A DNA stretch of 63,312 nucleotides, the filler included, from Collodictyon triciliatum (lineage: Eukaryota), in NCBI GenBank assembly GCA_043381765.1. It is 5 parts of 5 records of this genome, joined end to end, with 100 filler letters (N's around TTAATTAATTAA, not from the genome) between each part and the next. Parts side by side here need not be neighbours in the genome. Positions count along the whole stretch, not along the records: positions 1 to 15,310 come from JBHJMP010001690.1; 4 more parts are not named here. One strand, written 5' to 3'. Made by a program: the position numbers and the translations under genes. This document shows positions 176 to 63,312 of the stretch, in pieces. The notes under the pieces were generated by a model. It was not told the origin of the DNA. It did no database searches and saw only the letters and a list, made by a program, of their open reading frames with translations. Positions within the stretch are counted from its first letter, which is position 1. Every line of letters begins with the position of its first letter.

Positions 176-3109
176 TTGTCTGTGCTTCCCCAGTCACTTT
201 CAAGTATGGCGAATTTAAAATTGTTGGACATTGATAGCAATAACGTAATCGTCTATATCGTAATCCAAAATTGTACGCAGATGCCTTGTAGTTTCAATCA
301 ACCAAAAAAAAAAAAACATTCAAAAGCCAAGCTATTCAACAAAATCCTTTTTCAACTAAAAGAAATTATAAACAGCTGACTTCTTTATCGGGGTCCTTGT
401 TCCGAATAAGCAGTCTCACTCAACTTAAAGCTCACGGAAATCAAGTAGATATACATTCCCAGAAAAAACCATTGGTCAAACTATACTATGTGAGTACCAC
501 AGTCTTTATAATACAAATATGCAGATAGCAGTCGTTGATGATGGAATCCGCAACCTGACAAACCTCGTTCACATTTCCTTTGGAAGTAACAAAGTACGAA
601 TCGTCATATACAGCGTTCTCAAAATTGCTCTAGTGAACCACTTTGTTCTACCCCTCTGATTTTAATGAAAATGATATCATCAATTTGCAGCTGTCATCCA
701 TTCCCTTCGGAATTACCGATTTGACCGCACTTAGTGTTTTTCTTACACACCAAAATCCCATACCCTCAACCCTTGCCAAAGCTTGGGGGGCATATAATTT
801 CTCGTCGCAGATATTGCGCGTCTCTTCCCTCGGCTTTACAGGCAAAAATGAACTTGAATTTGATTTTATCCAAGGCTTCCCTGGATATTCATTCTCTGGA
901 ATCTTGGTAAGGGGAAACATAAAACTGTGTGATGCGTGCCTTGTGGCAATTTTTTTTTTTTTTTAAAAAAAAAAAGGCATGCTTATTATTATAATTAGAT
1001 GGAGCTGGCTCCGGCCAACCTTTGGTCATTGACAGATACAATTCACCTGGACCTCTCTGGGTCACAGGTCTGGCAATGAATTTTGTTGTTATCATTATTA
1101 TCTTGTCATCATCGTTCAAGAATGGATGAAATCACACCTCAATTGTGTTAAAAAAAATCGGCATTTTGTTTGATTCAAAGATAGTTAGAACTTTAACCAT
1201 TGCTCTTTATATAAATGATAAATCTTGCCATGTTGCAAAGATATCCTTCATCCCGGATGATATTTCGCAACTGTCACAGCTAAGGACACTTACCATATCT
1301 GATAATAATGTTTGTGAAAGAGTTGTTTTTACTTTCTTTTTTTTTTTTTTAAGAAAAAAAATCAAATTGTAATAATCTCAGTATCTTTGCAATATCCCAT
1401 TCGCTGATAGATAATAGCACGTTTACTTTGATAAAAAAAAAATAGTTGAGTTTTCTCCCAGACACTTTGGGAGACCTCCAAATGCTGGAAACATTATCTT
1501 TGGACCAGAACCACGTATATATACTATCTTGAAACACAAAACTGTATTTCGCTGCCACTCAAGTGTATACTTTTTTCTTTTTTTTTTTTTTGCTTTGCCT
1601 TTGCGTGGGAAAACCACGAATACTGTCCTTGGCGGAGTACAATAAAAATGGTAATCCAACATAAAGGTCGCATTTTTTCCAGCGTCCCTCTCTCGCTTAA
1701 CGAACTTGCAGTCCCTTTCATTCCAGAGAAATCAGGTTGACATATTCTACATGCCCTGACTTTGGTTGACACTTGAACACTATTTGTCTCGTTGAGTTTT
1801 ATCATTTTTTTTTTCACTCTCGGGCTACCTTCAATGCAATTTAAGAGACCAGGTGACTCTAAACTCCTTAATATTTGAAATGAGTGCAGGTTTCTACTCT
1901 GCCAAGCTTCTCCGAAAATGCCAGACTTACAGATTTTGTCTTTTTCAATAATAGTGTAAGATAGTTAACTCATTCTCCACCATTCCAGTTTCATATAATT
2001 TTTGTTTGCTTACGCATCTTCTTTCCTTGGCAGTTTATAACAATCATGTAATGATTTTTTTATTTACTCGAACAGGTATCAGAGATACCCGAATCTATAG
2101 GTTCGCTCTCGATGCTTCAAAGCCTATCTGCGAGCTCAAACAAAGTAATTTAATGAAACCGACTCAAGTCTCACCGTTTCCGTAGGAATAGGAGTTAAGC
2201 AAATGGGTCTCTGAAATAATAATCTCTGTGCCTTTAGATTACATGTCTCCCTGAAAATATGTCTAAATTGCAATCTCTCACTCTTTTGGAGTTGGCGAAC
2301 AACAAGGTTGAGATTATTGCTGACTGTTTTCCATCATAATTGGTCGCTTCTATGTCAGTTTTAAAAGGCTTTTGATTTGCTTACTTTCTATCCATTCCTC
2401 TTATTCCCTTTCTTTCATTCCTTTTTATTTCTCTTTCGATTTGAGGCTGACAACCACAAACATGTTTGTTGCATAATCGTTACAGATATCCCATTTACCA
2501 GAGGGCTTCGGTTTGGTGAAGGATTTGAGGATTCTGGATATTATAGGAAACCCGGTTAGATTAGCACAATACAGAAAAAAAAACGTTGCATTAGATTTAT
2601 AGCATATTCACATGCAGGAAAGCACATATCGTTTTCATGAAGATATCACTCATATGACTTGTATTTCCTTATCATAAAAGATATCTTACATCCCGTCCAC
2701 AATTCATCACATGAGCAATCTCACCGAGCTCGTCTTTGGAAGAGAACGAGTAAAGTTTACTATCGCGAGAGAAAACATAGCCCTGATTTAAAAGAATAGC
2801 ATCACAGCATTGCGCAAGCAAAACGTTTATCTGTCCTGTCACACTTTTTTTTTAATCAATCTGTTGTAGCCGCAGAGATACCGCATACACTACCACGCCT
2901 TTGAAAACTCGTCTCTGAAACAAGCGTTCGAATCGCAGCTCCATTATTTGAGCTACCCAAACACAATGCATCTCATGACCAAAGTCGAGCGATTGATTAT
3001 CTACGGCTTGGATATTTACTCACTGCCTGCGCAATTCATCCCCCAGAATGCATCTTACCTCTCCTTGTCAGGCAACAGGATTCGCCTCCTTCCAGATTCC
3101 TTCTGTTGA
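176..3109 (+). CDS. Leucine-rich-repeat protein, multi-exon, 5' end outside the window; 3' end uncertain
   Basis: AG/GT-bounded exons 176-244, 376-444, 525-593, 691-906, 999-1067, 1241-1309, 1446-1514, 1667-1735, 1890-1955, 2076-2144, 2238-2306, 2486-2554, 2681-2749 and 2870-3109 splice in phase 0. They give LRR units such as LSVLPQSLSSMANLKLLDIDSNN, LSFLPDTLGDLQMLETLSLDQNH and ITCLPENMSKLQSLTLLELANNK. Confidence 0.9.
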
Positions 3110-6296: not shown

Positions 6297-9200
6297 ATGT
6301 CTGCAACCGAAACAAGCACCGAGGCCAACGCCAGCCTTATCACCATCGACGAAGTCTGCAGAATTACATACATATCATTTCATCAAAAATTATATATATA
6401 TCAAAGAGGATTGATTGCTTACGCCAACAACTGAGCACAGGCTGTCCTCGAATGGGTGAACCACCACCTGGGAAAAATCGAGCTCAAGGCGACGAACATC
6501 CGCGATGATTTTATGGACGGGTTCTTTTTGGCCATGCTAATTGATGCGGTCACCGGAAAGTCCTTGGGAAGCTACCATTCGCGCTTGTTTGCGTATGATT
6601 TATTAATTGTATCCAAATCATTTATTCTTCTCATGGATTAGTATTTAATCCCTGTATTTATATCAGTGACAAAGCTATTGAGGAGGAAGTTCTTGTTAAC
6701 GAGAATCAGAAACTCATTGTTGATTGGTTTCTGACATTGAACGTGCGTTATGAGGCTGTTGCTTCTAAGGCCCATTACGCCGGTTTGCCTTATTTACTTT
6801 AAAGGGAATTGTTTGAAATCTTTCATATATCACTCATTTATTTTGTATGATTGACATATACCTATCTTACAGATTTGGTCTACACAATTCTCCAGTATCT
6901 AATTGGATTAAGTGTTGGCCATTTGGGAAGTCTTGGGGTAACAAAAAAACCTAATTTTTAAAATTTTCATTTTGATTTATATTTCGAACCATGTTGAAAT
7001 ATAATTTCTAATCATTAAATTGTAGAAAAAATGTCGTGAGAGGTACGATATTGCCAAGAAGCTCTACGAAAGAGTGAAGGCTCCGTTTCCTTTTCATGGT
7101 TGAAATTCGATTTATCTTATATTTTTATGATTATTCGATATATTTTTTGTTTTATCAATTTTTCAACTAAATTAAATTTAAATATTGATGCAGGTCTTGG
7201 TCTGGAAGAAAAAGGCTCTGTCGTACTAACCCGTACTTGCATTCTTCTTGACAAGGTTATCCATGAATTAATTTAAAAATAATTAAAAAATTTTACCTAA
7301 ATCCTTCCGATATGTGAAATATAATCGTGTATTTAAACCAGATGAAGCTTGCTCGTGAAGACCTGAAAGAGAGGCGATACAAGAAGTGGAATCCGGCTCC
7401 ACAAAGATACGTGACACCAACACCATTGCCGCTCATTGTCTTTGACGAGCGTGTCATCCGTGTTTTCCTTTCCTCGACTTTCCGTGACATGCAGCAAGAA
7501 AGAGACGAATTCTTCAGGAATGGAGCTCCAGAGTAAGTTCAATTCAATCCAATTAATAAATAAATCCATGATGAGGAATTATAATTTGATGCATTTATAT
7601 TACCAACAGTATTATCATTATGTCAGGTTGAAAAGACTTGCGAAATCGAAGGGATTAGACCTTGTCTTTATCGATTTGCGCTGGGGACTGACTTCTGAGG
7701 ACAGTAGTGAGGGATGGGTAAATACTATATTATTAACTCGTTATTTTTATGATAATTTTAAGAATATGCTGCATTATATAAAAGAATAAACTTCAATTTT
7801 CTCTTATTGCTTTCAAAGGTTGTGATTCGTTGTCTGGACTCTATCGGAAAATGCCCATACTTTGTGTGCTCTCTCGGTGCGCGCTACGGCTGGATTCCTG
7901 ACCAAAACAAAACGGAGCTGAATAAGCAAGCCCGCCTTGAGGAGCTGCTGAATACCAAGCCCGATGCCACCATGAAGGATATTTGGGTGGAATGGCGCAG
8001 TGAAACCAATAGCCGCTTTCCATTCATTGACGGAATGCCTGAGCTGAGTGTGACTGAATACGAGGTGAAGCTAATAATAGCGTGTATTCTGTATCTTCTC
8101 GTGAATAATTACAGTAGAAAAATAAACAAATTATTCTCTTAATCAAATATACATGTTCAGATTCAGTATGCCTGTCTGATTGACAAACCAGCATGCAGCC
8201 GCGCCTTCTTTTACCTCCGCGATGAGCACTATGCTGTCCAACATGCCAAGAGCGAGGAAGAAAGAAAGCTGTTCCAGGCTGAAAGCGAAGAGGCGGTAAA
8301 AATTGATAGAAAGTCTTTGTTTTTATTTTCAAGTTATTATTATATGATTATTTAATGATTCGATTTTTTGACACTTGTTTTAATGTATTTCTTTTAGCGT
8401 AAGAGGCAGGAGGAGCTCAAAGGGAAAGTCAAGGCCAAGTTCGGGCATGTTGTGTACAAAGGAGCGAAAGAGTATTCGGACTTTGTGACATACCATCTCT
8501 CCTACGCCATCGAGCGTGACTTTGGGAATCAAACTGTATTTTTTTTTGTAATTTTTGTGGATTTATGGATTTATGGATATATATTTCATTTCATTTGTTG
8601 ACATAACTGTATCCTAGGTGAGAGACCCTGAAGACCAAGCGCAGCACCAGTTCAAGATGCATCGACTGGCTGGGTTTGGCGGAAGAAAGGAGCTTCTCAA
8701 GATAATCACGGAGCAAGTAAGACGAAAAATAATGGAATTAAAATGACAACAATATCCTTTGATTTTTTCTTTTCTTATCAATAAATTATTTTTATCAGTC
8801 CATGAGTCAGCTGAGCATGGAGAAATCCAAAATCATCGTTCTTGCTGCCGAGTCTGGGATTGGAAAGTCATCGCTCATGGCTGCTACAGCGAGAGACCTC
8901 GAAGGGCTGAAGCATCCTGGGCTGCATATCTTTTTCCATTTTGTCGGATGCACCAACCTCAGCAACTACATGGAAAGGTTATTTATATTTCTTTTTGTTT
9001 TTATAAGTATAAAGATATTTTATTGTGTTTCTAAAAAAATACTTGTTTTATTTTAGTATTTCTATTCGCTTCTGGAATCTGGTCACAAACTCTGCCAACT
9101 TTGTCGAGGAAAAGAAGCAGGAAGCTGGTATTACAGCATTTCATTTTTATTTTTATCTTTTAATTCAAATGTCGTATAATTATTCAAGCATTCATCTTAT

Positions 9201-12200
9201 TTTGCCACCAGAATACGAAAAAGAGGGACTGCACGGCCTACTGAAAATTATTCAGGAGAAAACCATGTAATTCTTCAATTTTTATGACTGTTTTCATGAT
9301 TAAATCAAAATTAAAATGCTTTGAATCGAATAAAAAATTGATATTAATATTAAATTATATATTTTAGGGACGAGAAGTTTGTCTTTCTCATCGATGCCAT
9401 CAACCAAATCCACCCGTCGCAAGGAACGCCAGCTCCGCATTTGCTGACCTGGTTGCCCAAAGAAACGCCACCTAATGTTGCCATGGTTGTGTCGACCATT
9501 CATACCCATGAATCTTGCACGGTATTTAGTAATATTTTTTTGGGATATGTTTGTATTCTGCATAAAAATGATTTGAGTGGAAGGTTAATTAATGTTTCTC
9601 TGTCATAAGTCTGCCAAGAAAAGCGGACTGGAGCCGATTCCCATCGCCAAGTTGACTGAGGGTGAAGTTAAGTATGGAGTCGAATCATTCCTCATCCGCT
9701 ATGACAAGACCCTGAACGAAAAGCAAGTTGAAATGATTCTGACTGACTTGAAAGATACTGGTGAGACATTTTTAAAAGAGTATATATTTTGATTAAATTT
9801 TATAAGGAATAATTTAGTTTAGTTACTAATTATCTGATATTCATTATAGGCCATCCGCTCTATCTCCGCATCATTCTGGATGAAGTTAGGGTGTTTGGTG
9901 TCTATGAGAAGCTCGATGAAGAACTGTTTGCCCTGCTTTCGACCAATGGTGTCATTGAGCTTTACACTCTGATTATTAAGCGCTGGCAACTGAAGTTTGA
10001 CAGGAAAGGTGAGTATTGGTTGCATGTTTCACAAAAAAAAAATTCAAATTATAATTGCTACTTTTGTTGAATGAATCTTTTTTTTATTACAGTTTCATCA
10101 ACCGATGGAAAAAAGACAATACATGTCGAGTATGTCTCCCTCTCGATGAAGGTTCTTTTTGTCTCCCGCATTGGCCTGAGTGAAGGTGATTTGGATAAGT
10201 ACATGAAAGACGCGATTGGCACAGGATTCGAGCTTGCTGAATGGTTTTCTTACTCTTGAATTTTAATAGAATCAATATGTTTACCCATTTCTTTTCTTTT
10301 GATTTTACTTATCTTTTATTCATTCAAATAGGAAATCCTTCTTCTTTACCCTCATCGAGTCGCTTTTCGTCCGCAATGGAAGGTTGGTCTTATTTTTAAA
10401 TCCTTTCGTTCGTTAATTTGTGCTTTCGTAATAATTTTATTTTGATAATCTTAATCATTGTTTATTATAGATACATGTACTTCCACCAGCTGCTGTTTGA
10501 GACCACCGAAAAGGTCTACTTATCCGAAAAGAAAGAGATGGAAAAAACGCACGAAAAGTACGGAAAATGGCTGTTTGGCCAATATTTTGAGGTTGTTGAC
10601 GCGGATGAGGAGCTTGTTGCTGAGATATGCTACCAGCTTCTGAAGGGCAGTTCGTTTGACTTACTTGTCGAATACATGAAGCAAAAACATGTAATTTTTA
10701 TCTTTAATTCGAGTATTCTATACATAATGAAACGATTTCAATGATTATTTTTTTTTATAATTTATAGGTTATCAGTGTCATGCTTGGTGGTCGCTATCGC
10801 TACGAGTTCTTTACATGCTGGAGAGCAATCAACGCAAGTGGGGCGGCAAACTACAAAGAAGCTTATGGGAGCTTGGCGAAGGTTTAATTGATTATTTTCT
10901 TTTAATTTTTGAATGTTACTACTCACAAAATATAATTATCAATCATGATTTACCTTTTAATTTTTCAGTCTTTGGATAAAGTGGGAGACCTGCTCGTTGG
11001 ATTTTTCTTGGAGTCTTTTGAGAACTCGTTTCTGTTGTCTGTTCTGAATGTGCGCCTTGGACAACATCAAACAGAAGGTGTGGAATTCAATTTTCGTTTA
11101 TTGAGTAATATTTTAAGGGAAATTATGGATTCAATTTATTTACAATATTTCTTAATCTAAGACTCAAAGGCTGTTGATTATCTGAATCTTGGTCGTGTGT
11201 ACAAGAACCTCCAAAAGTAAAAACACGGTCGATGAATAAAGTTAATTAAGACATGATAACAATAAAATGCAAAATTTCTTACATATAAAATTAAACAGCT
11301 GGTCTGAATCCATGGTCTATTACAAGAGATGTCTTGATTCAGTTGAGAAGAATACCGATAATTCCCGGCGTATCGCCACCATTCATGAAGAAATGGGAAT
11401 CATCTACCAGCAACAGGATAAGTAAGGCTCGCTTTCAACTTTTAAAAAAAGTATATTATTGTGTTTCAAAAAATAGATGTTCTTATTTGCTTATTAAATA
11501 GAATTGATGAAGCTCTTGATGAATACGAGAAATCACTGGAATTGAGAACCAAACTGATGGGTGAGAACAACTTGCAAGTGGCCCAATCGCACGACCGCTT
11601 CGGAGACATCTATGTAAAGCAGTCAAAGTAATATTATTTCATCGTATTCCTTATCTTCTGCTTTTATTTTGTAAAAATACATATATGCTGATCCAATCTT
11701 TATGATAGGAATGAGAAAGCTCTGGCTGAATACATAAAGGCCATGGAAATCCGCCAAAAGAAAGTCGGAAACGAGCATCCACTAGTCGCAACATCGTACC
11801 AGAACTATGGCCATGTCTCTCTGGCTGGGAAAAAGTAGCATATTCATTCGATTTAAGACAGTTTTATATAGGGTTATTTATTTTTGAGAAATATTAAAAT
11901 GATTGAATCATCAAGGTATGAAGAGTCTGTTGAAAACTACGAAAAGGCAAAATCAATCCTTGAAAAATCGTTGGGAGCCAAGCATGCATCTGTTGCCTCG
12001 ACAATCCAGTTTATTGCAAACGTTCATCTTGCCCGTGGAATGTTCGAATTTCTAATTTTTAGATGTTTGCATACAACAATTTTTCCTTTCTTTCAATTTT
12101 TTCAAGATGAGTGTGGTTTCATATCTTTCATTTGTATGGACTCTATTTGGGAGCTGTGATTTTCGCATAATATAACTAATTTTAATTATCAAATAACTTT

Positions 12201-14990
12201 TGTCTTATATAGGAAAACGGAGGCCTTATCGTCATTAAAGCAATCGCTGGATATTTTCATGTCTGCCCTGGGTGAAAATCATCCGAATGTTGTGGCCTGC
12301 AATGAGATGATTGGAGATATCAGCCATGATTTGAAGATGTATCTCTTTTTCATATATATATTGAATTGAAACAAAAATATATTTACTCGCTCATATTATC
12401 TTAGTTTTAAGGGTGCTCTGGAGGCGTATACAAAGGCGCTGGATATTCGCATGAGAACACTGGGTGAAAAGCATGCTGATTATGCGACTGCCCTTGAAAA
12501 TGTTGGCAGAACAAACTTTGAGCTTCAAAGGTGCATTTACATATTTATTAAAAAATCAAATTATTAAATTGAATATTGTAAAAAACAAACTACTCAATAC
12601 TAAATTTTAAATCAAGGTTGGACCAAGTCATTGAATACTTCCAGAAGGCTGCTATTATCAGGAAGGAGACAAATACTATAATGTCACTGAAAGATGGCCC
12701 GCAAATTGATAATGTTATCCGACTCATGAAGGATAAAAAGGAGCATGAAGCTGCCATTCAGCTTTACATTACGCTGATTCATCTATTCAGTAGACTTTTC
12801 GTCTTGGATTATCTTGGAATATGGAGCAGCTGTGAGAAAATCGATAACATTTACAAGGAACTGAAGCAACATAATGAAGCAGTGCCGTTCTGGGCTGATA
12901 TGAAAGATAGATTCGCTGATAAACTCGGATGGATTCACCCCAGAACATTGAACTCGTGCGAATACTTGTCCGTCCATTCAAAAGAAATCGGGGTCAACAA
13001 AGAGCCTGTCGAGTTTACAAGAGTCAAGGAATTCATCAGTGAAACTCTTGATGATGCAAAACTGGATGAAGAATGGAATCGTGAGCAAATCATCGCATCA
13101 TTATTCAGAATTGTCTACATGTCAAAGAAACATGAAAGCAAATCAAAGGCTGCATCTGATGCAATCACACTTTTGAATTTCATGAATGTTTTGTTTGGTG
13201 GAATGGATTTATCAAACATCAAAATTCCACATGCAAATCTCAGTAACTCAATCCTTGATGGTGCAAACCTCACTGGTGCCGACTTGGATGGTGTTGATTT
13301 CACGAATTCGATGCTTGGTGATTGCATTTTTGATAATGCAAATATGAATAATGTGAAATTCGGAATTCCTCATTATAAACTAGAAGGACATACAAATGAA
13401 GTCTGGAATGTTTGCGGTATTCAAGGGCCGAATGGCGAAAACTGGTTGGCTTCTGGAAGCAATGATAATACAATTTGTATTTGGGATGTAGCCACAGGGA
13501 ACCAACTGAGAATATTAGATGGGCATACAAGCGATGTCTGGAGTATCTGCAGTATTCAAGGACTGAATGGTGAAAACTGGTTGGCTTCTGGAGGCTGGGA
13601 TAAAACAATACGTATTTGGGATGTAGCCACAGGGAACCAACTGAGAATATTGGAAGAACATGCAACTGATATCTGGAGTGTTTGCCGTATTCAAGGACCG
13701 AATGGTGAAAATTGGTTGGCTTCTGGAGGTGGCGACAACACAATACGTATTTGGGATGTGGCCACAGGAAACCAAATCAAAACATTGAAAGGACATATGG
13801 GTGTTGTCAATAGCATTTGCAGTATTCAAGGGCCGAATGGCGAGAATTGGCTGGCTTCTGGAAGTGGTGATAAAACAATAAGTGTTTGGGATGTATCCAC
13901 AGGAAACCAAATTAAAATATTAAAAGGGCATGTCAAAGATGTCATTAGTATTTGCAGTCTTCAAGGACCGAATGGCGAAAATTGGTTGGCTTCTGGAAGT
14001 GGTGATAAAACAATACGTGTTTGGGATGTAGTTTCAGGAAATCTAATCAAAATATTCGAAGGGCATACAAATGATGTTATGAGTGTCTGTAGCATTCAAG
14101 GACCGAATGGTGAAAAGTGGCTGGCTTCTGGAAGTAATGATAAAACAATATGTATTTGGGATGCAACCACTGGAAACCAAATTAAAACTTTAGAAGGTCA
14201 TGAAAAACCAGTCATGAATGTTGGTATTATTAAAGGATCGAATGGTGAACATTGGCTGGCTTCTGGGAGTGAAGATAATAAAATACGTCTTTGGGATATG
14301 GCCACAAATACCCTAATCAAAACGTTAGAAAGACATATAGAGCGTATCACTAGTGTTTGTAGTATTCAAGGACCGAATGGTGAAAATTGGTTGGCTTCTG
14401 GAAGTGATGCTAAAACGATACGTATCTGGGATGTAGCCACAGGAAACCAAACACACAGCCTGCAAAAATCGGAAGTTACATTCGATGAGAAGAAACATTT
14501 GGTAAAGAAAGAAAATCCAGATGAAATAATTGCAGTATTCAACAGAACAAGTGATGCGATGAACATGATTGATACCAACAGAGTCCAAGATGCAAGAACA
14601 GTCCAGATTTCCAGCCCAGGAGAGTTGGAAGGCGGAAACATCCAAATCAGAAATGTCGCAAGATTGAGTCAATTCAACAAAACCCTTCTATTTTCAATCG
14701 GTGCTGTTTCTTTCGATGCGGACTTTGCTGCCTATTGTGAGCAGGGTGAAATCACAGCGTTTCAAGCTCAAATAATGGCTGAGTGCTATGAGAATGGATG
14801 GGGTGTTGAGAAGGACAGCGATAAATCAGCTGAGTGGAGGCAGATTGCAGAGAACTTTGAAAATGATAATGATAGTGATGAAGAATACGAAGACGAACAC
14901 GAGGATGGAGATGGAAATGAAGATGGAAATGACGATGGAGATGACGATGGAGATGACGATGGAGATGACGATGGAGATGATCTGATCTGA
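6297..14990 (+). CDS. NLR/STAND-like protein: calponin-homology-like - DUF4062 - NACHT/NPHP3-like P-loop NTPase - TPR repeats - pentapeptide repeats - 8x WD40 - single Sel1-like motif - acidic tail
   Basis: ATG at 6297. CH-like segment AVLEWVNHHL..NIRDDFMDGFFLAMLIDAVTG. DUF4062 segment IRVFLSSTFRDMQQERD..FIDLRWGL..PYFVCSLGARYGWIP. Walker A AESGIGKSS (about 8847-8873), Walker B FVFLIDAINQ (about 9378-9407) and GHPLYLRIILDEVRVFG. TPR exons span 11299-12530. The terminal exon 12617-14990 is the 790-aa ORF, joined in phase 2. Confidence 0.88.
13380..14459 (+). repeat. Eight tandem 135-nt (45-aa) highly similar WD40 repeats
   Basis: Consensus L.GH...V.S(V/I)CSIQGPNGENWLASGS.DKTIRIWDVATGNQIK.; exact 135-nt period from 13380 to 14459. 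Confidence 0.97.
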
Positions 14991-15310: not shown

Positions 15311-15410
15311 NNNNNNNNNNNNNNNNNNNNNNNNNNNNNNNNNNNNNNNNNNNNTTAATTAATTAANNNNNNNNNNNNNNNNNNNNNNNNNNNNNNNNNN
15401 NNNNNNNNNN
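15311..15410. other. Artificial assembly spacer (44 N + TTAATTAATTAA + 44 N)
   Basis: The identical 100-nt structure recurs at 28152-28251, 37634-37733 and 60447-60546; the core has stop codons in all six frames. Confidence 0.97.
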
Positions 15411-28151: not shown

Positions 28152-28251
28152 NNNNNNNNNNNNNNNNNNNNNNNNNNNNNNNNNNNNNNNNNNNNTTAAT
28201 TAATTAANNNNNNNNNNNNNNNNNNNNNNNNNNNNNNNNNNNNNNNNNNNN
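28152..28251. other. Artificial assembly spacer
   Basis: 44 N + TTAATTAATTAA + 44 N. Confidence 0.97.
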
Positions 28252-37633: not shown

Positions 37634-37733
37634 NNNNNNNNNNNNNNNNNNNNNNNNNNNNNNNNNNNNNNNNNNNNTTAATTAATTAANNNNNNNNNNN
37701 NNNNNNNNNNNNNNNNNNNNNNNNNNNNNNNNN
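37634..37733. other. Artificial assembly spacer
   Basis: 44 N + TTAATTAATTAA + 44 N. Confidence 0.97.
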
Positions 37734-43800: not shown

Positions 43801-46008
43801 AGCTGTTTGAATTCTTTTATTTTTTTTAAGCTCAAATAATATGTACTTTCAACGTGCGTGTCTGCCAAGGATATCGAACTACTTATCTTTATCTATTATC
43901 ATTCTGATAAAATCAAAATTTGTTATTTCGAATGCCTACGGTGTCATAGGCATCTCAAAACAGAAAAAGGGTTCAAAAAACATTGTGTGATAACTATTCC
44001 CCATTTGCATTCTTCCACACAATTTCTAACCCGGTAGTGGATGGGTGGTCAGTCTATACAGTTGAATCTGACTTTGCTAGGATGAATGTTCCTGGTACGA
44101 GTTTGACAGGCTATCAATGAAAACTATAATTTGAAATTTGAGCTCTCTAATCGAAAAAAATTCATCATTTTTTTCTCATTTAGACCCTGAATGGAAGCTC
44201 ACAGATATGAACTCAGAATTTCGACTATGTTCAACTTATAATAAACGGCTAGCTGTGCCGACTATCATGCTTGACGTCGAGCTCAAGGCTGTGGCTCACT
44301 TCAGAAGTCGAGCTCGGATTCCTGCACTTTGTTGGAGGAAACCATCCACAGGTTTGTTTTCAGCATAGCAAGACAGAGAAAAATCCAATATAAGCTTAGT
44401 TCACTCACTTCAAAATAGGCTAACAGTATGCAAAACAATAGGTGCAACGATATCTCGTTGCAGCCAACCACGTGCAGGAATTACCGGCTATCGATGTCTG
44501 GAGGATGAGAAGCTATTAAAAGGTAAGAAAATTAGTCGTGCATAATTGAGGTCCCGAGTAATAAACAATATGAATTTTTTCTTGAAATCAGCTATATCTG
44601 CGTTGAATAAGAGGAGCGACCTTCTCTATATAATTGATTGTCGCCCGCGTGTGAATGCAGTTGCAAATCAGGCAAAAGGTGATCAATCATAATTAGATAG
44701 ATCTCTATCAAGAGTGTTTTAGTTTACATCCTGGCAAATGAAGTACTTTTAAACTATCAATATATGCACAACTTTTAGGAGCCGGCTTTGAAAATACTGG
44801 AAACTACACTAATTGTGAAGTTATATTTATGGACATTGAGAATATCCATGTCGTGCGCGATAGCTGGAAGAAACTTCAGGTGAATCTGTTGATACACTAT
44901 TTTATTTATCTCTTTGCTATGATCTAATTATACATGAAATCCTGATCATATCGTTGTTGTTGTTTCTTTTAAAAAAATAATAAAAAAACTGATGGCACAT
45001 ATTTATCGCAAAAAAGGAATTGACATTTGGCATCGGACAAGGTGAAGATAGCCGCTGGTATTCGATGCTCGAAGGAACTGAGTGGCTCATTCATATCCAG
45101 TCAATTATTCGAGCAGCCAAGTTTATTGTCGACCAAATGAATACCAGGGAATGTTCATTCCTTGTGCATTGCAGTGGTAAGCAAATGCGATATGAGAATT
45201 TCTGTGTAAACCATGAACTATTTTACTTGTCATGAAATGAGTGTTGTCCAGCACTAAGTTTATAAGAATTAATCAAGCTGACGTTTTAAAAAAAAAATGT
45301 TACCGAGTCTTACTTTGTGTGCTCCTAGTCAATTCACAAGCTTACTCACATTGTATTGCCAGATGGATGGGACCGCACTTCACAAGTTGTTGCGCTGTCA
45401 GAATTACTATTGGACCCACACTATCGTACCATATGTGGATTCGAAGCGTTGATTGAGAAGGAATGGTTGTCGTTTGGACACAAGTTTGCCACGCGTTGTG
45501 GACACGGTCCTCCAAATTGTGAAAGCGACCAAAGAAGCCCTATTTTTCTTCAATTTTTAGAATGTGTGTGGCATATCACAAGACAGTATCCAACTGCCTT
45601 CGAGTTCAACGAGGCATTTCTTATCACTATAATTGACCACGTATATAATTGCCGTTTTGCCACGTTCCTGTGTGACTCTGTCAGCGAACGCCACCAGGTT
45701 TTCTCTTTCTCCTTTGCGCGATTGTAAACGAACTTTGTACACATTATTGTTGTTTTCAGGGAAAGAATTTGTGTGATTATATTCAAAACCATCACCCACC
45801 CTTTTTTTTTCTGTCAAATTTGCTGCAGCTTCTTCTTTATTCAAAACCATCGCTCTGGACGTGGATGAATCAGGATTTGAAGGCATACCGGAACATGCTT
45901 TACCAAAAAGTGGACGGGCCACTGACACCGAGCGACGGGATGTGGAATCTGCGACTCTGGACAAATATGTATCTGCGGTATAGCTCGGTTCGGCTACTTA
46001 ACCAATGA
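37857..46008 (+). CDS. Multidomain myotubularin: coiled coil/IQ-like - divergent RhoGEF (DH) - PH - ankyrin repeats - PH-GRAM - active myotubularin phosphatase
   Basis: [12 protein letters not shown]-like [19 protein letters not shown] and [13 protein letters not shown] segment [24 protein letters not shown] segments GDRPIHIAT and [16 protein letters not shown] segment [10 protein letters not shown]. Phosphatase motifs [55 protein letters not shown] and [12 protein letters not shown]. Confidence 0.85.
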
Positions 46009-46726: not shown

Positions 46727-50757
<4,031 letters not shown>

Positions 50758-51586: not shown

Positions 51587-56875
<5,289 letters not shown>

Positions 56876-57448: not shown

Positions 57449-60058
57449 TCACATGGACACTAGCTTGCGCAAGGCGTCGTCATCGCCCTGGTCGCAGGCG
57501 CGCAGATACCAGTGGGCAGCGGCGGAGGCAGAGACGGGGACGTCGTGGCCGGCCGCGTGGGCCTCGCCGAGGGCGCGCTGGGAAGGGAGATACCCGTTTG
57601 TGGCGGCCATGAGGCACCAGCGCAGCGACTCGCGGGCGGACTCGACCGTCCAGCGGTTGCGGTAGCAGACATGGAGGTTGCTCTGCGCGACGACGCTGCC
57701 CTGCTCGGCGGCCTTGTGGAACCAGCGGATGCCCTCGCCGACGTTGCGCTCCGTGCCCTGGCCGCGCGCGTAGTAGAAGCCGAGGGTGGACTGGGCGGAC
57801 GCGTAGCCCTGCTCGGCAGACCGCAGATACCAGCGGAAGGCCTCCTCCATGTTCTGCTCCACGCCGTGCCCGTTGCCGTAGCACATCCCGAGGTTGCACT
57901 GCGCGTACATGTAGCCCTTCTCAGCCGCGCGCCGGTACCACTCGAAGGACTTGGCCTGGTCCTTGGGCACGCCCACGCCGTTCCAGTACATGTTGCCGAT
58001 GCTGTTTTGCGCGTGCAGGTTCTGCTGCTGCGCCGCGCGCATGTACCAGTCGAACGCCTGCGCGTAGTCCTGCCCGACGCCCCGCCCGTGCTCGTACGAG
58101 TACGCAAGATTGTCCTGCGCGCTGGCGTTGCCCTTCTCCGCCGCCGTCCGGAACCAGTGCACCGCCTGCGCGTAGTCCTGCCCGACGCCCCGCCCGTTCT
58201 CGAAGCACAGCCCCACGTTGTTCTGCGCGCTCGCGTTGCCCTTCTCCGCCGCGCGCATGTAGTGCGCAAACGCCTGCCCGTAGTCCTGCCCGACGCCCCG
58301 CCCGTGCTCGAAGCAGATCCCCACGTTGTTGAGCGCGTAGATGCTCCCGTTCTCTGCCGCGCGCATGTACCACCCAAACGCCTGCGCATAGTCCTGCCCG
58401 ACGCCGTTGCCCTTCTCGTAGCAGATCCCCAGGTTGTTTTGCGCGTACGAGCTCCCTTGCTCCGCGGCCTTGCGGTACCAGTGGATGGCCTGCGCGTAGT
58501 CCTGCCCAACGCCTCGTCCGTGCTCGAAGCATGACCCCAGGTTGTTTTGCCCATCCTCGTTGCCTTGCTCCGCGGCCTTGAGATACCACTGAGCCGCCTG
58601 TGCGTAGTCCTGCCCAACGCCCCGCCCGTTCTCGTAGCAGATCCCCACGTTGTAGTACGCACTCGTGTTCTCCTGCAGCGCAGCCTTCAGGAACCAGTGG
58701 AAGCCTTGCTCATAGTCCAGCTCCACCCCGACCCCGTTGTAGTAGCACGTCCCGAGATAGTTTTGCGCGTTGGCGCTGCCTTTGACCACCGCGCGCCGGT
58801 ACCACAGGATGGCCTGCTTGTCGTCCTTGGGCACGCCTTGGCCCTTTTCGTAGCACAGTCCCAGATTGCTCTGCGCGTACGGATCTTGCGCGTCGGCCGC
58901 CTGCCGGTACCAGTAGATGGCCTGCGACAGATCCTGCGGCGTGCCTTCGCCCTTCTCGTAGCAGATCGCAAGGTTGTTTTGTGCAGTGATGTGTCCTTTC
59001 TTTGCCGCCCGGGTGAAAAAATCAAACGCCTTGCCGTAGTTGCGCGCCACTCCTTGTCCGTTCCAGTAGCAGATACCAATCGTGCGCTCCGCATAGATGT
59101 TCCCCAAGTGTGCGGACACAAGATAGAACCGGGCCGCATCCGCATGCTTCTCCTCCAGCAGGTCCAGCAGATAGCCGGTGAGAAAGTGGCATTGAATCGC
59201 CATTTGGTCTTCCAGGCTCCCTTCTGCATCAGAGCCCGGTACTGTGCCTGAAGAGCTACCCTGCAAAGTGTCGCTTTTAGTCGTGTGAGACTCCTTTTCT
59301 AGTCTGGCAGGCTTTCCAGGCAGCGGACGAGCGTCATATCCGGCCTGCACATTCGATAATGTCTGGCCTGGTGGCTCGTCACTGGTTGGCCGTGCAGCCA
59401 CTGGGGCTGAAGAGTCGAGATTTTCCTTGGCAGAGAAGCAAACTAGTGGTGTCTGCAATGAGTCTGACGCAAGCTTTGTCTTGGCCTTCGCAAGTCGCGG
59501 CGATTGGGCCAAGGGCGATTCCTGCTGCAGACGAAAGCCCGACTCTGCATCCCCCTCAACAGCAGCAGACGGTACAGAGGCTTCATCATCATGATCATCA
59601 CCTATGTTTGCTGCGTCGTTGCTTGCAAGAGTCTCGTCCTCAGAAGGCGGCTCCACTTGGGTCTTTGGCGTGTTTTCTACTGTGTGCTCGGGCCCCAACT
59701 CAGCAGCAACCTCGGCCAGCAGCGTCCCAGAAAGAAGCTCCGGACGCAGAGGAAACTTTGCACAGAGCTTTGCGAGGGCATTGCGTGAGCGGACCAGTGC
59801 GTGGGCCGAGCAGGAGCGCGCTTTGTTGTACTGCTCGTCTACAAGATCTTTTTCTCGCGGGTGGTCGATCAGGGCCGGGCGGTAAAAGTAGATTGCGCGC
59901 AGGCAAAGCATGGCCACCACAAAGTCCGGCTCCAGGCTCAGCAGCGTCTCGAGATCCTTGTGGGCCTCCTCCGCGCGATACTGCGACATGCAAAGCACCG
60001 CGGATTCGAGCAGTGCGGTGATTCGTGGATCGGGCGCTGCGGAGGCTTTGCTGTCCAT
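57449..60058 (-). CDS. Intronless Sel1-like repeat protein (869 aa, about 15 SLRs) with an N-terminal TPR-like segment
   Basis: Uninterrupted ORF. 36-aa units AQNNLG.CYE.G.GV.QDY.QA..WY..AAEQG begin at 59092. Confidence 0.95.
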   Translation of the reverse strand: MDSKASAAPDPRITALLESAVLCMSQYRAEEAHKDLETLLSLEPDFVVAMLCLRAIYFYRPALIDHPREKDLVDEQYNKARSCSAHALVRSRNALAKLCAKFPLRPELLSGTLLAEVAAELGPEHTVENTPKTQVEPPSEDETLASNDAANIGDDHDDEASVPSAAVEGDAESGFRLQQESPLAQSPRLAKAKTKLASDSLQTPLVCFSAKENLDSSAPVAARPTSDEPPGQTLSNVQAGYDARPLPGKPARLEKESHTTKSDTLQGSSSGTVPGSDAEGSLEDQMAIQCHFLTGYLLDLLEEKHADAARFYLVSAHLGNIYAERTIGICYWNGQGVARNYGKAFDFFTRAAKKGHITAQNNLAICYEKGEGTPQDLSQAIYWYRQAADAQDPYAQSNLGLCYEKGQGVPKDDKQAILWYRRAVVKGSANAQNYLGTCYYNGVGVELDYEQGFHWFLKAALQENTSAYYNVGICYENGRGVGQDYAQAAQWYLKAAEQGNEDGQNNLGSCFEHGRGVGQDYAQAIHWYRKAAEQGSSYAQNNLGICYEKGNGVGQDYAQAFGWYMRAAENGSIYALNNVGICFEHGRGVGQDYGQAFAHYMRAAEKGNASAQNNVGLCFENGRGVGQDYAQAVHWFRTAAEKGNASAQDNLAYSYEHGRGVGQDYAQAFDWYMRAAQQQNLHAQNSIGNMYWNGVGVPKDQAKSFEWYRRAAEKGYMYAQCNLGMCYGNGHGVEQNMEEAFRWYLRSAEQGYASAQSTLGFYYARGQGTERNVGEGIRWFHKAAEQGSVVAQSNLHVCYRNRWTVESARESLRWCLMAATNGYLPSQRALGEAHAAGHDVPVSASAAAHWYLRACDQGDDDALRKLVSM

Positions 60059-60387
60059 GTTTTCCCTCGCCGGTGGGTTTCCTTGGTCGTGGGTCTGCGA
60101 TCGTATTTGTTCCTTGGTGGCTGTGCGGTTTTCTGTTTGCGTTTCAATTTGTCTTCCTCTACGTTGTTGTTGTTATTTTTTTTGTGGTTTTTTTGTGGTT
60201 TTTTTGGTTTTTTTGGTTTTTTTTCCTTTATTCGATTCAAAGTGTAGCGTTTGTTTTATGTTTTATGTTTGTTGTTTTATGTTTTATGTTTGTTGTTTGT
60301 TGTTTGTTGTTTGTTGTTTGTTGTTTTTTGTTTGTTGTTTTTTGTTTTTTTGTTTTTTTGTTTTTTTTATTTTTTTTTTGTTTTTTT

Positions 60388-60446
<59 letters not shown>

Positions 60447-60546
60447 NNNNNNNNNNNNNNNNNNNNNNNNNNNNNNNNNNNNNNNNNNNNTTAATTAATT
60501 AANNNNNNNNNNNNNNNNNNNNNNNNNNNNNNNNNNNNNNNNNNNN
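60447..60546. other. Artificial assembly spacer
   Basis: 44 N + TTAATTAATTAA + 44 N. Confidence 0.97.
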
Positions 60547-61187: not shown

Positions 61188-62942
61188 CTACGAGCGCGGG
61201 AGGGACGGGGCGGAGAGGGAGGGGCGGGGCGGGGAGTTTGCGAGGAGGGCGTCGCGTGCGCGTGCGAGTGCGCGGATGTCGAAGGGGGTGAGGTCGGGCA
61301 GGGCGCGGGGCGGGAGGGCGGGGTCTGCGAGGTCGAGGTCGAGGAAGTCCTTGCCGGAGAGCCTGTGGTGGAGGAGGAGGGCGGTGGTGCGGTCGGAGAG
61401 GTGCATGTAGAAGAGGAGGGCGCGCAGCTCCTGGGGCCGCAGGGAGGCGAGGGCGGCGGGGCTGACGCGGGTGGTCATGAGGGAGTTGAGGGCCAGGTAG
61501 TCCTTGATGGAGCGGAAGACGGGCTGCTCGGCGATGAAGAGCGCCTCCACCTCGCGCAGGGCGGGGCGCGCCTTGGGGTTGTCGGCCATGCCGCGCTTGA
61601 TCATCTCCTGGATGGCCACGGGGCAGCGCGCAGGGGGCGCCCGCGACGCCTTGGCCGGCACCGCGCCGCTCAGCATCTCGCACACCAGCGCCAGCAGCGA
61701 GAAGACGTCGCTCTTTTCGCCCTGGTGCCCGCGCCGGTCGTCCAGCTCGGGGCCGTGGTAGTCGCCGTCGCCGTGGCTGTGGCTGTGGCTGTGGCTGTGG
61801 CTGTGGCCTTCGCCGTCGCTGCTCTGCTTGAGGCGGTGCAGCCCCACGTCCGTCAGCTTGCACACGCCGCGCACCACGAGGACGGTCGTTGCGCGCACGT
61901 TGCGGTGGGCCACGGGCGGGCGCTGGGCGTACATGTAGGCGAGGCCCTTGCAGATGTCCAGGCCGCAGCGCAGGGCGTCGAGCAGCGGCAGGCCCTTGAT
62001 GATGGTCTGGCGCGCAATCAGGGCCCGCAGCGTCTCGCCGGGCGCGTCCTCGCTCACCACGGCAAGGTCCGTGTCCACGATGCAGACGCCGTAGAGCTGG
62101 ACGATGTTGGGGTGCGTCAGGCGCTGCAGCTGCTGCCCCTCGTGCACCGCCGCCTCCACGTCCACCCCGGGGTCCTGCAGCCCCGCAATCGCCACGCGCC
62201 GCACGCTGACCGCCCGCTCCAGCCACGTCCCGCGCCACACGCGCCCGTTGCCGCTGCCCCCGCCGCTGCCCCCGCCGCTGCCCTCGGCCGTCAGCCGCAG
62301 ATCCGCCGCCCGCAGCTGCACGCGCTGGCCCACGCCGACCGCCCCGCCGCCCTCCGCCCCCGCGCCTGCCCCCGCATCCGCATCCCCCGCCGTCTCGTCC
62401 GTCAGGAAGCGGATCCACATGCGCAGCGCCCCGGCGTGCTCCTCGCGCGTGGTCGACGGCGGCTGCGCACGCACCAGCTCCTCCATGTGCCGCAGATCCG
62501 CCAGCCGCAGCCGTGCCGCCTCTGCGCCGTCCAGCGTCTGCCGCGCAGCCTGCAGCTCCTCGCCGAAGTGGTGCACCTGCTGCACCAGCGGACACAGCCA
62601 GTCCTCGCCGATCCCCAGCCCCACCACGCCCTCCAGCAGCGCCCCCGTCCCTGTCCCCGTCCCCGTCCCTGCTCCCGTCCCTCCTCCGCCCTCCCCGTCC
62701 GCCCCTGCCTTGGGCCCCCGGCACAGCTCCCCGATCCGCACCGCGTGCAGCAGCGTCTGGTTCAGCCGCGTCAGCGTCACCCGCACCCCCTCGTTCGTCT
62801 GCGTCCGCTGCCGCTCCAGCGCCTCCCTCAGTCCCCCCACCTGCCCCACAAGATACTTGATCTGCTGCTTCAGGAATACCGCCTGCTCGCTTGCTCGTTC
62901 CAGCTGCTCGATCAGGTCCAGTCCAAAGCTTGCAGAGTCCAT
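61188..62942 (-). CDS. Intronless TKL-type pseudokinase with an N-terminal MLKL/MCAfunc-like helical domain and a C-terminal SAM-like domain (584 aa from the ATG at 62942)
   Basis: Kinase subdomains GRVWRGTW, VSVRR, LTHPNIVQLYG, GLAYMY..PPVAHRNVRATTVLV, KLTDVGL, YHGPEL, KSDVFSL and NPKARP. The VAIK, HRD and DFG residues are substituted. The terminal domain calls are by resemblance only. Confidence 0.85.
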   Translation of the reverse strand: MDSASFGLDLIEQLERASEQAVFLKQQIKYLVGQVGGLREALERQRTQTNEGVRVTLTRLNQTLLHAVRIGELCRGPKAGADGEGGGGTGAGTGTGTGTGALLEGVVGLGIGEDWLCPLVQQVHHFGEELQAARQTLDGAEAARLRLADLRHMEELVRAQPPSTTREEHAGALRMWIRFLTDETAGDADAGAGAGAEGGGAVGVGQRVQLRAADLRLTAEGSGGGSGGGSGNGRVWRGTWLERAVSVRRVAIAGLQDPGVDVEAAVHEGQQLQRLTHPNIVQLYGVCIVDTDLAVVSEDAPGETLRALIARQTIIKGLPLLDALRCGLDICKGLAYMYAQRPPVAHRNVRATTVLVVRGVCKLTDVGLHRLKQSSDGEGHSHSHSHSHSHGDGDYHGPELDDRRGHQGEKSDVFSLLALVCEMLSGAVPAKASRAPPARCPVAIQEMIKRGMADNPKARPALREVEALFIAEQPVFRSIKDYLALNSLMTTRVSPAALASLRPQELRALLFYMHLSDRTTALLLHHRLSGKDFLDLDLADPALPPRALPDLTPFDIRALARARDALLANSPPRPSLSAPSLPRS

Positions 62943-63312
62943 CCTCCCTTCTTCCTTTTCTTTTTCTTTTCCTCCTGCAATACGATCCAAGCGAAAGAAA
63001 AGGCTGTCAAGATATTGTGTATTCAAGAACGTGGGAAAGAAAAAAGCAGTGTTTTCTCTTTTCTTTTTTTTGCTCTTCTTTCCTGCTGCTAGGACTCCTG
63101 TCGCGTGGTCTCAGCCAAGACTTGCTCACCAGGCTTCCACCACTCAAAAAGAGTAGAGGAAGGCGGTGGAGCGGGTGTCAAAGGCGCAGGAAAAAATAGC
63201 AAACAAAAAAAAAAAAAAAAAAAAGGTAGTTTTTTTTTTTAAAAAAAATAAAAAAAATTACAAAAAAAAGAAAAAAAAAAAAAAAAAAAACAAACCAGAA
63301 AAAAAAAAAAAA

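What the first reader, a model, noticed from the sequence alone, without database searches (positions are those of the whole stretch)
13380..14459. WD40 array with high internal conservation and variable residues at HET-E/HNWD-like positions
Seen: eight 135-nt repeats share a near-invariant scaffold (IQGPNGENWLASG, TIRIWDVATGNQ), while variation concentrates at fixed sites. After (G)H the residues are TNEVWN, TSDVWS, ATDIWS, MGVVNS, VKDVIS, TNDVMS, EKPVMN and IERITS. After ASG they are SN, GW, GG, SG, SG, SN, SE and SD. Established: in Podospora HET-E/HET-D (HNWD) NLRs the equivalent top-face propeller positions are under positive selection, while concerted evolution and repeat shuffling homogenise the scaffold. 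Inference: a similar diversifying recognition surface exists in this protist.
Basis: partly seen in the sequence, partly recalled or inferred. Interest (0 to 1): 0.75.

Follow-up and report, generated by a model that had tools for sequence, protein, structure and literature searches.

The report
Variable WD40 sensor, protist NADase receptor
Eight recently copied WD40 blades form the likely sensor end of a large immune-receptor-like protein with an NAD-cleaving head in a freshwater protist; they differ mainly on the binding face, as such arrays commonly do, and selection for that diversity is suggested but not proven.

Summary
The eight 135-nt units and every residue listed are real. They lie in the intronless last exon of a 30-exon, 2,030-aa STAND gene: CH, DUF4062/TeTIR, NACHT-like, TPR, pentapeptide, WD40, Sel1-like tail. 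All nine TEP1 active-site residues compared are conserved. 'High internal conservation' fails the published bar: best 77% over 100 aa against 85%. The units were nevertheless homogenised or re-amplified in this lineage. The five most variable codons match five of seven HNWD positions and lie on the top face of an eight-blade model. That placement is generic: 102 of 102 unrelated arrays show it. Selection is borderline: M1a/M2a is not significant; a-priori sites give omega 1.3-1.6 (p 0.28/0.07); the post-hoc five give 2.2-2.5. An 81%-identical relative differs at 12 of 14 such sites against 22 of 87 others. Verdict: probably a diversifying sensor of an NADase-armed NLR-like family, not an HNWD member; ligand and isolate polymorphism untested. 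The scan already noted this family and such arrays on other pieces of this genome.

The parts
6297..14990 (+). Host gene: 30 exons, 6,093 nt CDS, 2,030 aa; STAND/NLR-like protein of the TeTIR(DUF4062)-NACHT class
   Evidence: All 29 acceptors AG, 28 GT and 1 GC donors, phases consistent, no internal stops. Colinear with P0157 (2,619 aa) from its second CH-like segment to the tail (tblastn). Eight GT-AG joints in related RNA(?) contigs match introns 2, 4, 6, 7, 9, 10, 11, 20.
6441..6592 (+). Calponin-homology-like N-terminal segment (exon 2)
   Evidence: Pfam CH E 4.6e-5, below the curated cut-off on one exon; 51% identical to P0157 189-239
7456..8535 (+). DUF4062 / TeTIR / NIR TIR-like NADase domain (exons 7-11; boundaries approximate)
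   Evidence: Pfam DUF4062 on exons 7 and 9. Equivalents of TEP1 F902, S905, R908, R914, R942, W943, C959 and R976 at exactly TEP1's spacing, at 7465, 7474, 7483, 7501, 7679, 7682, 7831, 7882. The P0157 domain hits the TEP1 chain 11gz_A at E 1.7e-16.
8062..8064 (+). Glutamate equivalent to catalytic E1008 of TEP1
   Evidence: P0157 alignment to 11gz_A (second, weak stretch, 9.1 bits) puts this Glu on chain residue 115 = E1008; the same motif lies at 8047-8064 in the window
8799..9521 (+). NACHT-like P-loop ATPase core: Walker A 8847-8870, Walker B 9378-9395 (second acidic pair replaced, as in P0157)
   Evidence: Weak per-exon Pfam hits NPHP3_N, AAA_16, NACHT (E 0.002-0.02); motifs; 58-66% identity to P0157
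11299..12530 (+). TPR array: exons of 123 nt and 5 x 126 nt, one 42-aa repeat each, same intron phase; old and diverged
   Evidence: Pfam TPR_12 on 5 of the 6 exons scanned; exon sizes; pairwise identity 17-34%
12617..13361 (+). Start of the 2,374-nt intronless last exon: helical linker, then pentapeptide repeats (about 13179-13361)
   Evidence: Pfam Pentapeptide E 1.4e-11; 83% identical to P0122 and 40-42% to P0002, P0157 and P0201
13380..14459 (+). Eight 45-aa WD40 units (starts 13380, 13515, 13650, 13785, 13920, 14055, 14190, 14325) forming one eight-bladed propeller. Variable codons 5-7 (d-a loop), 9 (start of strand a) and 28 (b-c turn) face the top; the conserved loop at positions 16-20 (a-b loop) faces the bottom
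   Evidence: AF2 single-sequence model: blades mostly pLDDT 75-93, strands at unit positions 8-15, 21-27, 32-36, 42-46. Best Foldseek hit is the eight-bladed Tako8, E 4e-28. Top/bottom assignment from PMC1805685 and standard WD40 topology.
14460..14870 (+). Family-specific C-terminal tail ending in one Sel1-like helical hairpin (about 14775-14837)
   Evidence: Pfam Sel1 E 0.006. Long matches to the tail in P0157, P0156, P0201, P0185, P0123 and P0002 among the 150 hits listed; 35-41% identity for four of them.
14871..14990 (+). Acidic low-complexity end (12-nt tandem repeat 14910-14980) and stop codon

Best explanation
The array is the ligand-sensing beta-propeller of an NLR-like STAND receptor whose effector is a TIR-like NADase. 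Shown here: the domain order; an intact NADase active-site signature; spliced transcripts in close relatives; an eight-blade fold; units more alike than their counterparts in distant relatives; variation focused on the top face; and rapid change of those residues against a close relative. Inferred, by analogy with APAF-1, TEP1 and HNWD proteins: the sensor arms fold back on the NACHT domain, a ligand binds the variable top face, and nucleotide exchange and oligomerisation switch on NAD+ hydrolysis, which depletes NAD+ or kills the cell. Blade duplication and conversion renew the scaffold, while the binding-face codons drift or are selected towards new specificities. The ligand (a virus, endosymbiont or prey protein, or a guarded host protein) is unknown.
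For: Architecture. Active site 9 of 9 residues; these residues are needed or contribute in TEP1 (bioRxiv 10.64898/2026.09.21.753143, sections 5 and 9 and passages). Homogenisation: third-position identity at invariant four-fold codons 106 of 140 against 0.26-0.31 expected. Seven of 8 units plus both P0122 units group apart from the 35 units of four other relatives (support 84/74; label clustering as low in 0 of 500 shuffles), whereas P0157 and P0002 units do not cluster by gene (202 and 500 of 500). Identical tracts of 41 and 40 nt; codon-permutation P 0.011 and 0.039. Unit number differs: 8 here, 7 in P0002, about 19 in P0157. Turnover: against P0122 (83% identical flank) 12 of 14 top-face sites differ against 22 of 87 others, Fisher p 2.5e-5. 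Site omegas 1.5-2.7 at the five sites against about 0.3 background; neutral simulations with the same choice of 5 of 7 sites reach the observed statistic in 4 of 45 (F3x4) and 0 of 45 (F1x4). An unrelated 22-unit control array gave omega 0.3-0.45 at the equivalent sites. The three array rows shown in table 5c all place the unmatched letters over codons 5-9, with net shifts of 135 or 270 nt.
Against: M1a vs M2a not significant (p 0.63, 0.25). A-priori seven HNWD sites: omega 1.34-1.63, p 0.28 and 0.07. A-priori four sites: 2dL 0.35-3.1. The result depends on the codon-frequency model, and conversion between units can inflate it. The same five positions are more variable than the rest in 102 of 102 unrelated arrays, and 25 of those 102 are as self-similar or more so. 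Fails HIC. The tree group is not starred and the bootstrap did not settle. P0122 may be a paralogue. The Walker B motif lacks its second acidic pair. No ligand, no activity assay, no isolate data.
Confidence: 0.55

Rival explanations
1. Re-amplified propeller with relaxed top face. One blade was amplified, the structural and bottom-face residues stay under purifying selection, and the exposed top loops simply drift (omega about 1). The propeller is a structural or autoinhibitory cap, with no selection for new specificities.
For: A-priori and M2a tests not significant. The pattern is universal in 102 of 102 arrays. Continuous amplification of propellers from single blades is common (PMC9218822, passages). 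The bottom-face loop, not the top face, is what the family conserves.
Against: All five site estimates exceed 1 (1.5-2.7) and neutral simulations rarely reach the statistic (4 of 45, 0 of 45). The control array stays at 0.3-0.45. The host protein has a sensor-switch-effector layout with an intact NADase site.
Confidence: 0.3
2. Stable housekeeping adaptor. Each blade has specialised to bind one fixed host partner, so blades differ from each other but orthologues keep their top-face residues.
For: Differences among blades alone cannot exclude this. A CH-like head suggests a cytoskeletal or ciliary setting (inference), and the relatives NPHP3 and NWD1 have no established immune role (own knowledge).
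Against: Top-face residues are not kept: 12 of 14 differ from P0122 and 34 of 35 from P0002; same-position units are no more alike (0.46) than others (0.44); unit number varies from 7 to about 19.
Confidence: 0.1
3. Assembly artefact or decaying gene: the array is a collapsed or chimeric join of paralogous repeats.
For: The scaffold has N gaps nearby (15311-15410); related runs hold many similar contigs over the array; no laid piece spans the whole stretch.
Against: The frame is open through all 8 units with no gap; units differ by 15-33% in DNA, enough to assemble; flank and tail are colinear with P0002 and P0157; background omega is about 0.3.
Confidence: 0.05

Closest known systems
Podospora anserina HNWD/NWD NLRs (HET-E, HET-D, HET-R)
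   Same: NACHT-type STAND protein with a C-terminal WD40 sensor; units homogenised within a lineage; variable codons at the equivalents of 5, 6, 7, 9 and 25 (PMC1805685; PMC12222747).
   Different: No HET domain. Units are 45 aa and 47-80% identical rather than over 80-100%. One eight-blade propeller rather than 11 HIC units in a double propeller. The codon-27 equivalent is not variable. TPR and pentapeptide modules lie between ATPase and propeller. Selection is borderline and the function unknown.
TeTIR / NIR / DUF4062-NACHT STAND proteins (TEP1, NWD1, NWD2, TTC41, NPHP3)
   Same: DUF4062 directly before a NACHT-like ATPase; all nine compared active-site residues conserved, including the catalytic Glu; C-terminal repeat sensors.
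   Different: The preprint describes either WD40 or TPR C-termini. This protein has both, plus pentapeptide, a Sel1-like tail and a CH-like head, and a lineage-homogenised propeller. The preprint's supplementary architecture figure could not be seen.
NACHT-pentapeptide-WD40 proteins of Mycoavidus, Mortierellaceae, Reticulomyxa and cyanobacteria; highly repetitive (WRAP-type) propellers
   Same: Helical linker, pentapeptide and repetitive WD40 module (P0009, P0033, P0050, P0059); same variable positions and similar or higher self-identity (PMC9218822).
   Different: Their units are mostly 42 aa and follow the NACHT directly; here the module follows a TPR arm and ends in a family-specific tail.
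Unannotated protist relatives P0157, P0002, P0201, P0156, P0123, P0185, P0122
   Same: Same 45-aa unit and/or tail; P0157 has the full domain order; P0002 joins the TPR part and the last-exon module in one transcript-derived protein.
   Different: P0157 and P0002 arrays are old (mean self-identity 0.47 and 0.42, against 0.64 here) and of different length. P0156 carries a different NACHT-type N-terminus (read from its sequence, not scored). Only P0122 shares the homogenised unit.

Membership tests
HNWD/NWD fungal NLRs | N-terminal HET domain (HNWD) | tested here: not met
   Per-exon Pfam scan of 25 segments found CH and DUF4062, no HET; five short exons were not scanned
HNWD/NWD fungal NLRs | NACHT-type ATPase plus C-terminal WD40 array | tested here: met
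   (NACHT hits are weak because exons were scanned singly)
HNWD/NWD fungal NLRs | High internal conservation (85% over 100 aa; units over 80% identical) | tested here: not met
   Best 77% over 100 aa; pairwise 47-80%
HNWD/NWD fungal NLRs | Concerted evolution of units | tested here: met
   Moderate support: synonymous identity 106 of 140 against 0.26-0.31; clustering 0 of 500 shuffles; conversion-like tracts P 0.011/0.039. One burst of amplification cannot be told from ongoing exchange.
HNWD/NWD fungal NLRs | Positive selection at codons 7, 9, 25, 27 | tested here: inconclusive
   A-priori four sites omega 1.25-1.8, 2dL 0.35-3.1; seven sites p 0.28/0.07; post-hoc five omega about 2.2. In simulations with true omega 2.2 the seven-site test passed in only 29-36% of 45 runs.
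HNWD/NWD fungal NLRs | Variable sites on the top face (d-a loop, b-c turn) | tested here: met
   Secondary structure of the AF2 model against PMC1805685; not diagnostic
HNWD/NWD fungal NLRs | Unit-number polymorphism among isolates; exchange between paralogues | not testable with these tools
   No genome held; only fragmented contigs of relatives
HNWD/NWD fungal NLRs | Allorecognition and cell-death function | not testable with these tools
   Needs experiments
TeTIR/NIR/DUF4062-NACHT STAND proteins | DUF4062/TeTIR domain directly upstream of NACHT | tested here: met
TeTIR/NIR/DUF4062-NACHT STAND proteins | RWG loop, catalytic Glu and the substrate-binding F, R, R, R, C residues | tested here: met
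   Eight residues by exact spacing; Glu by alignment of P0157 to 11gz_A on a weak second stretch
TeTIR/NIR/DUF4062-NACHT STAND proteins | C-terminal WD40 or TPR repeats | tested here: met
   Both present
TeTIR/NIR/DUF4062-NACHT STAND proteins | NADase activity | not testable with these tools
   Activity is not uniform in the family: NWD2 was weak and three prokaryotic homologues were inactive in vitro

The most novel reading that the evidence does not exclude
This free-living protist keeps an expanded repertoire of NADase-armed NLR-like receptors whose WD40 blades are drawn from a shared, recombining pool and positively selected on the binding face. That would be an HNWD-like diversity generator coupled to a TeTIR death effector, evolved independently of fungi and used against viruses, endosymbionts or non-self cells.
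Probability: 0.3. Interest if true: 0.7.

Novelty: new variant of a known kind. Interest (0 to 1): 0.4.

Why it matters
Repetitive WD40 sensors with variable top faces are known from fungi and bacteria, and TeTIR/DUF4062 NADases were described in 2026, so neither part is new. The combination is what counts: an apparently intact NADase head, two sensor arms, and a propeller renewed in one lineage while older relatives keep diverged arrays. If selection and isolate polymorphism hold up, it would be a testable case of receptor diversification and NAD-depletion immunity in a single-celled eukaryote. Four literature searches listed no paper whose title or abstract start describes this in a protist; the library lacks most subscription journals. 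This particular array is a modest example: older and less uniform than HNWD arrays.

Tried and rejected
Whole-genome search for a shared repeat pool: no genome is held. Within the window, one unit matches only the array itself. The source organism of P0002 could not be looked up, so taxonomy rests on unchecked scan notes. The metagenome scan gave 14 loci, all generic WD40 proteins of 26-40% identity and none of this family; L001 served only as a control, and it is more saturated and was trimmed to 42 codons. Homologue search with the whole last exon: 1 of the 120 listed hits (P0002) covered more than 80% of the query. Sequence look-up in earlier findings: nothing. Run search: 20 of 22 runs hold a small share (at most 0.23); only four were laid, so habitat claims from the others are not used. 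Depth over array and tail is higher than upstream in X1 and X10 (120-1011 from 12897 on, against 19-160 before), but contig depth is no copy number and 120-128 records fit two places, so it is only a hint of paralogues. The 135-multiple joints may be aligner jumps between similar units and are not counted as shuffling. A fresh fusion or horizontal gain of the intronless last exon (GC3 0.30-0.41 against 0.53) was rejected as a recent event, because P0002 and P0157 carry the same join at about 42% identity. The post-hoc five-site p values (0.019, 0.002) are not taken at face value; simulations were used instead (45 runs per setting, coarse grid, fixed tree shape). The AF2 model is unreliable for the pentapeptide part and most of the tail (pLDDT under 50). 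No complex prediction was run, since no candidate ligand exists.

Full report
Observation. The array is real. TRF finds a 135-nt period with 7.9 copies at 13381-14451, and Pfam finds eight WD40 stretches in the open frame 12582-14990. The conservation is overstated. Units are 47-80% identical in protein and 67-85% in DNA, and 13 of 45 columns are invariant. The best match over 100 residues is 77%. The HiC definition is 85% over 100 aa (PMC4986451, passages), and HNWD units are over 80-100% identical (PMC12222747, passages and section 17).

The host gene. The array lies in the last, intronless, 2,374-nt exon of a 30-exon gene at 6297-14990 coding 2,030 aa. All acceptors are AG, 28 donors are GT and one is GC, and no exon has an internal stop. 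Contigs of two related RNA(?) runs show GT-AG joints at introns 2, 4, 6, 7, 9, 10, 11 and 20; five more rows fit introns 3, 14, 22, 27 and 28 by arithmetic. The tables were cut (138 and 63 rows hidden), and intron 29 is not among the rows shown. Protein relatives cover that join: P0002 is 41% identical over 754 residues and runs from the TPRs into the last-exon module, and P0157 (2,619 aa) is colinear with the gene from the CH-like segment to the tail. A scan of 25 exon segments gave CH, DUF4062 (twice), weak NACHT/NPHP3_N, TPR_12 (five exons), pentapeptide and a weak Sel1 hit.

The effector. Earlier scan notes pointed to 2026 preprints showing that DUF4062 (TeTIR, NIR) is a TIR-like NADase. 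I read the abstract, sections 5 and 9 and passages of 10.64898/2026.09.21.753143, passages of 10.64898/2026.05.01.722283, and only the listing of 10.64898/2026.09.04.749371. Eight TEP1 residues (F902, S905, R908, R914, R942, W943, C959, R976) have identical counterparts at exactly the same spacing. R954, which one preprint places in the active site, is not conserved (W). The catalytic E1008 maps to codon 8062-8064 through P0157's alignment to PDB 11gz_A (E 1.7e-16 overall; the Glu is on a weak second stretch). Activity is inferred, not shown; some family members were weak or inactive in vitro. The preprints' supplements were not seen and may list TPR-plus-WD40 forms.

Where the variation sits. 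The five most variable positions are 5, 6, 7, 9 and 28. A single-sequence AlphaFold model gives a confident propeller, with strands at unit positions 8-15, 21-27, 32-36 and 42-46; its best structural match is the eight-bladed Tako8. Positions 5-7 are therefore in the d-a loop, 9 at the start of strand a and 28 in the b-c turn. These are the top-face elements that carry the selected HNWD codons 7, 9, 25 and 27 (PMC1805685, passages). Five of the seven HNWD positions coincide (chance 1.7e-5); the equivalents of codons 27 and 34 are not unusually variable (site omega 0.35-0.45). The control matters: in all 102 unrelated arrays with at least eight regular 42-aa units among the stored proteins, the same five positions vary more than the rest, and 25 of the 102 are as self-similar as this one or more so. 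The location is thus a general property of repetitive WD40 arrays.

Homogenisation. At five invariant four-fold codons, third positions agree in 106 of 140 pairs; codon usage predicts 0.26-0.31. Mean identity is 0.64 within the array, 0.68 to P0122's two units and 0.40-0.49 to units of four more distant relatives. In a 45-unit tree, seven window units and both P0122 units form one group (84/74, not starred; bootstrap not settled), and the window label clusters as tightly in 0 of 500 shuffles. P0157 and P0002 units do not cluster by gene. Unit 7 is the outlier. Identical tracts of 41 nt (units 3 and 8) and 40 nt (across the unit 1/2 and 2/3 borders) give permutation P 0.011 and 0.039. Unit number is 8 here, 7 in P0002 and about 19 in P0157 (15 of them extracted). 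So the array was rebuilt or homogenised in this lineage, but not very recently: pooled dS is about 0.5. Such amplification is widespread (PMC9218822, passages).

Selection. Overall omega is 0.40-0.48 and M1a vs M2a is not significant (p 0.63, 0.25). The seven a-priori sites give 1.34-1.63 (p 0.28, 0.07), and the five most variable give 2.2-2.5 (nominal p 0.019, 0.002) against a background near 0.3. Simulating neutral evolution at the seven sites and choosing the top five reaches the observed statistic in 4 of 45 (F3x4) and 0 of 45 (F1x4) runs. With true omega 2.2 the seven-site test passes in only 29-36% of runs, so power is low. A control array of 22 units gives 0.3-0.45 at the equivalent sites, so values above 1 are not automatic; that control is more saturated. 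Against P0122, whose flank is 83% identical, 12 of 14 top-face sites differ against 22 of 87 others (p 2.5e-5). This excludes a fixed, conserved binding face unless P0122 is a paralogue, but does not separate selection from drift. Verdict: suggestive, not proven.

Family and setting. The tail is shared by six relatives with long matches among the 150 hits listed, in different N-terminal contexts. The four runs laid include a freshwater and a subsurface metagenome and two small RNA(?) sets, each with many related contigs. Unchecked scan notes report many paralogues with this layout and several more uniform arrays on other pieces of this genome, and place the organism near Diphylleia. I did not verify the taxon.

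Mechanism and verdict. The most likely reading (0.55) is a sensor propeller on an NADase-armed STAND switch, diversifying on its binding face. Main rival (0.30): relaxed constraint after amplification. It works like an HNWD sensor in layout and in where it varies, but it is not an HNWD member (no HET, no HIC). It meets the sequence criteria of the TeTIR-NACHT class, as a variant with both TPR and WD40 arms. Searches for a published protist case listed none by title or abstract start. Interest 0.4; 0.7 if a shared, selected and shuffled blade pool is confirmed (probability 0.3).

Noticed in passing
window 11299-12530: TPR repeats encoded one per 126-nt exon (five of 126 nt, one of 123 nt) with the same intron phase. 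The exon size matches the 126-nt TPR exons of Ectocarpus NB-ARC-TPR genes (PMC3341825, passages), but these are only 17-34% identical to each other, so they look old rather than actively shuffled.
   Followed up: partly
window 13425-13439 and the same offset in each unit (positions 16-20): The a-b (bottom-face) loop, three residues longer than in 42-aa units, is the most conserved loop in this array and recurs in P0157, P0002 and P0201 units; possibly a conserved docking surface.
   Followed up: no
window 12617-14990: A 2,374-nt intronless exon ends a gene whose other 29 exons are 51-246 nt; GC3 is 0.30-0.41 against 0.53. Its linker-pentapeptide-WD40 module resembles those of Mycoavidus, Mortierellaceae and Reticulomyxa proteins.
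   Followed up: partly
window 9378-9407: Walker B lacks the second acidic pair, as in P0157; ATP hydrolysis may be atypical.
   Followed up: no
P0122 residues 1-44: The predicted start of P0122 reads exon 29 in another frame and runs into intron 29 (compare), which implies the same exon-intron layout in that relative.
   Followed up: partly
window 57449-60172 (-): GC-rich (57-64%) 907-codon frame with 14 Sel1 stretches (Pfam E 1e-137).
   Followed up: partly
window 61188-63110 (-): GC-rich (about 70%) frame with a Tyr/Ser-Thr kinase domain (E 2e-23); far higher GC than the first 25 kb of the window.
   Followed up: partly
window 45329-45727 (+) and 50065-50508 (+): Exons of a myotubularin-like phosphatase and a carboxyl-transferase.
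   Followed up: partly
window 54325-54471 (+): Weak WD40-like tblastn match (E 0.06-0.4); the frame tried contained stops.
   Followed up: no
window 15311-15410, 28152-28251, 37634-37733, 60447-60546: Four scaffold gaps of 44 N + 12 bases + 44 N; the one viewed holds a 12-base palindromic spacer, so these are assembly joins.
   Followed up: partly
window 176-2749: An earlier scan note describes an LRR gene tail with one repeat per 69-nt exon just upstream; not checked.
   Followed up: no
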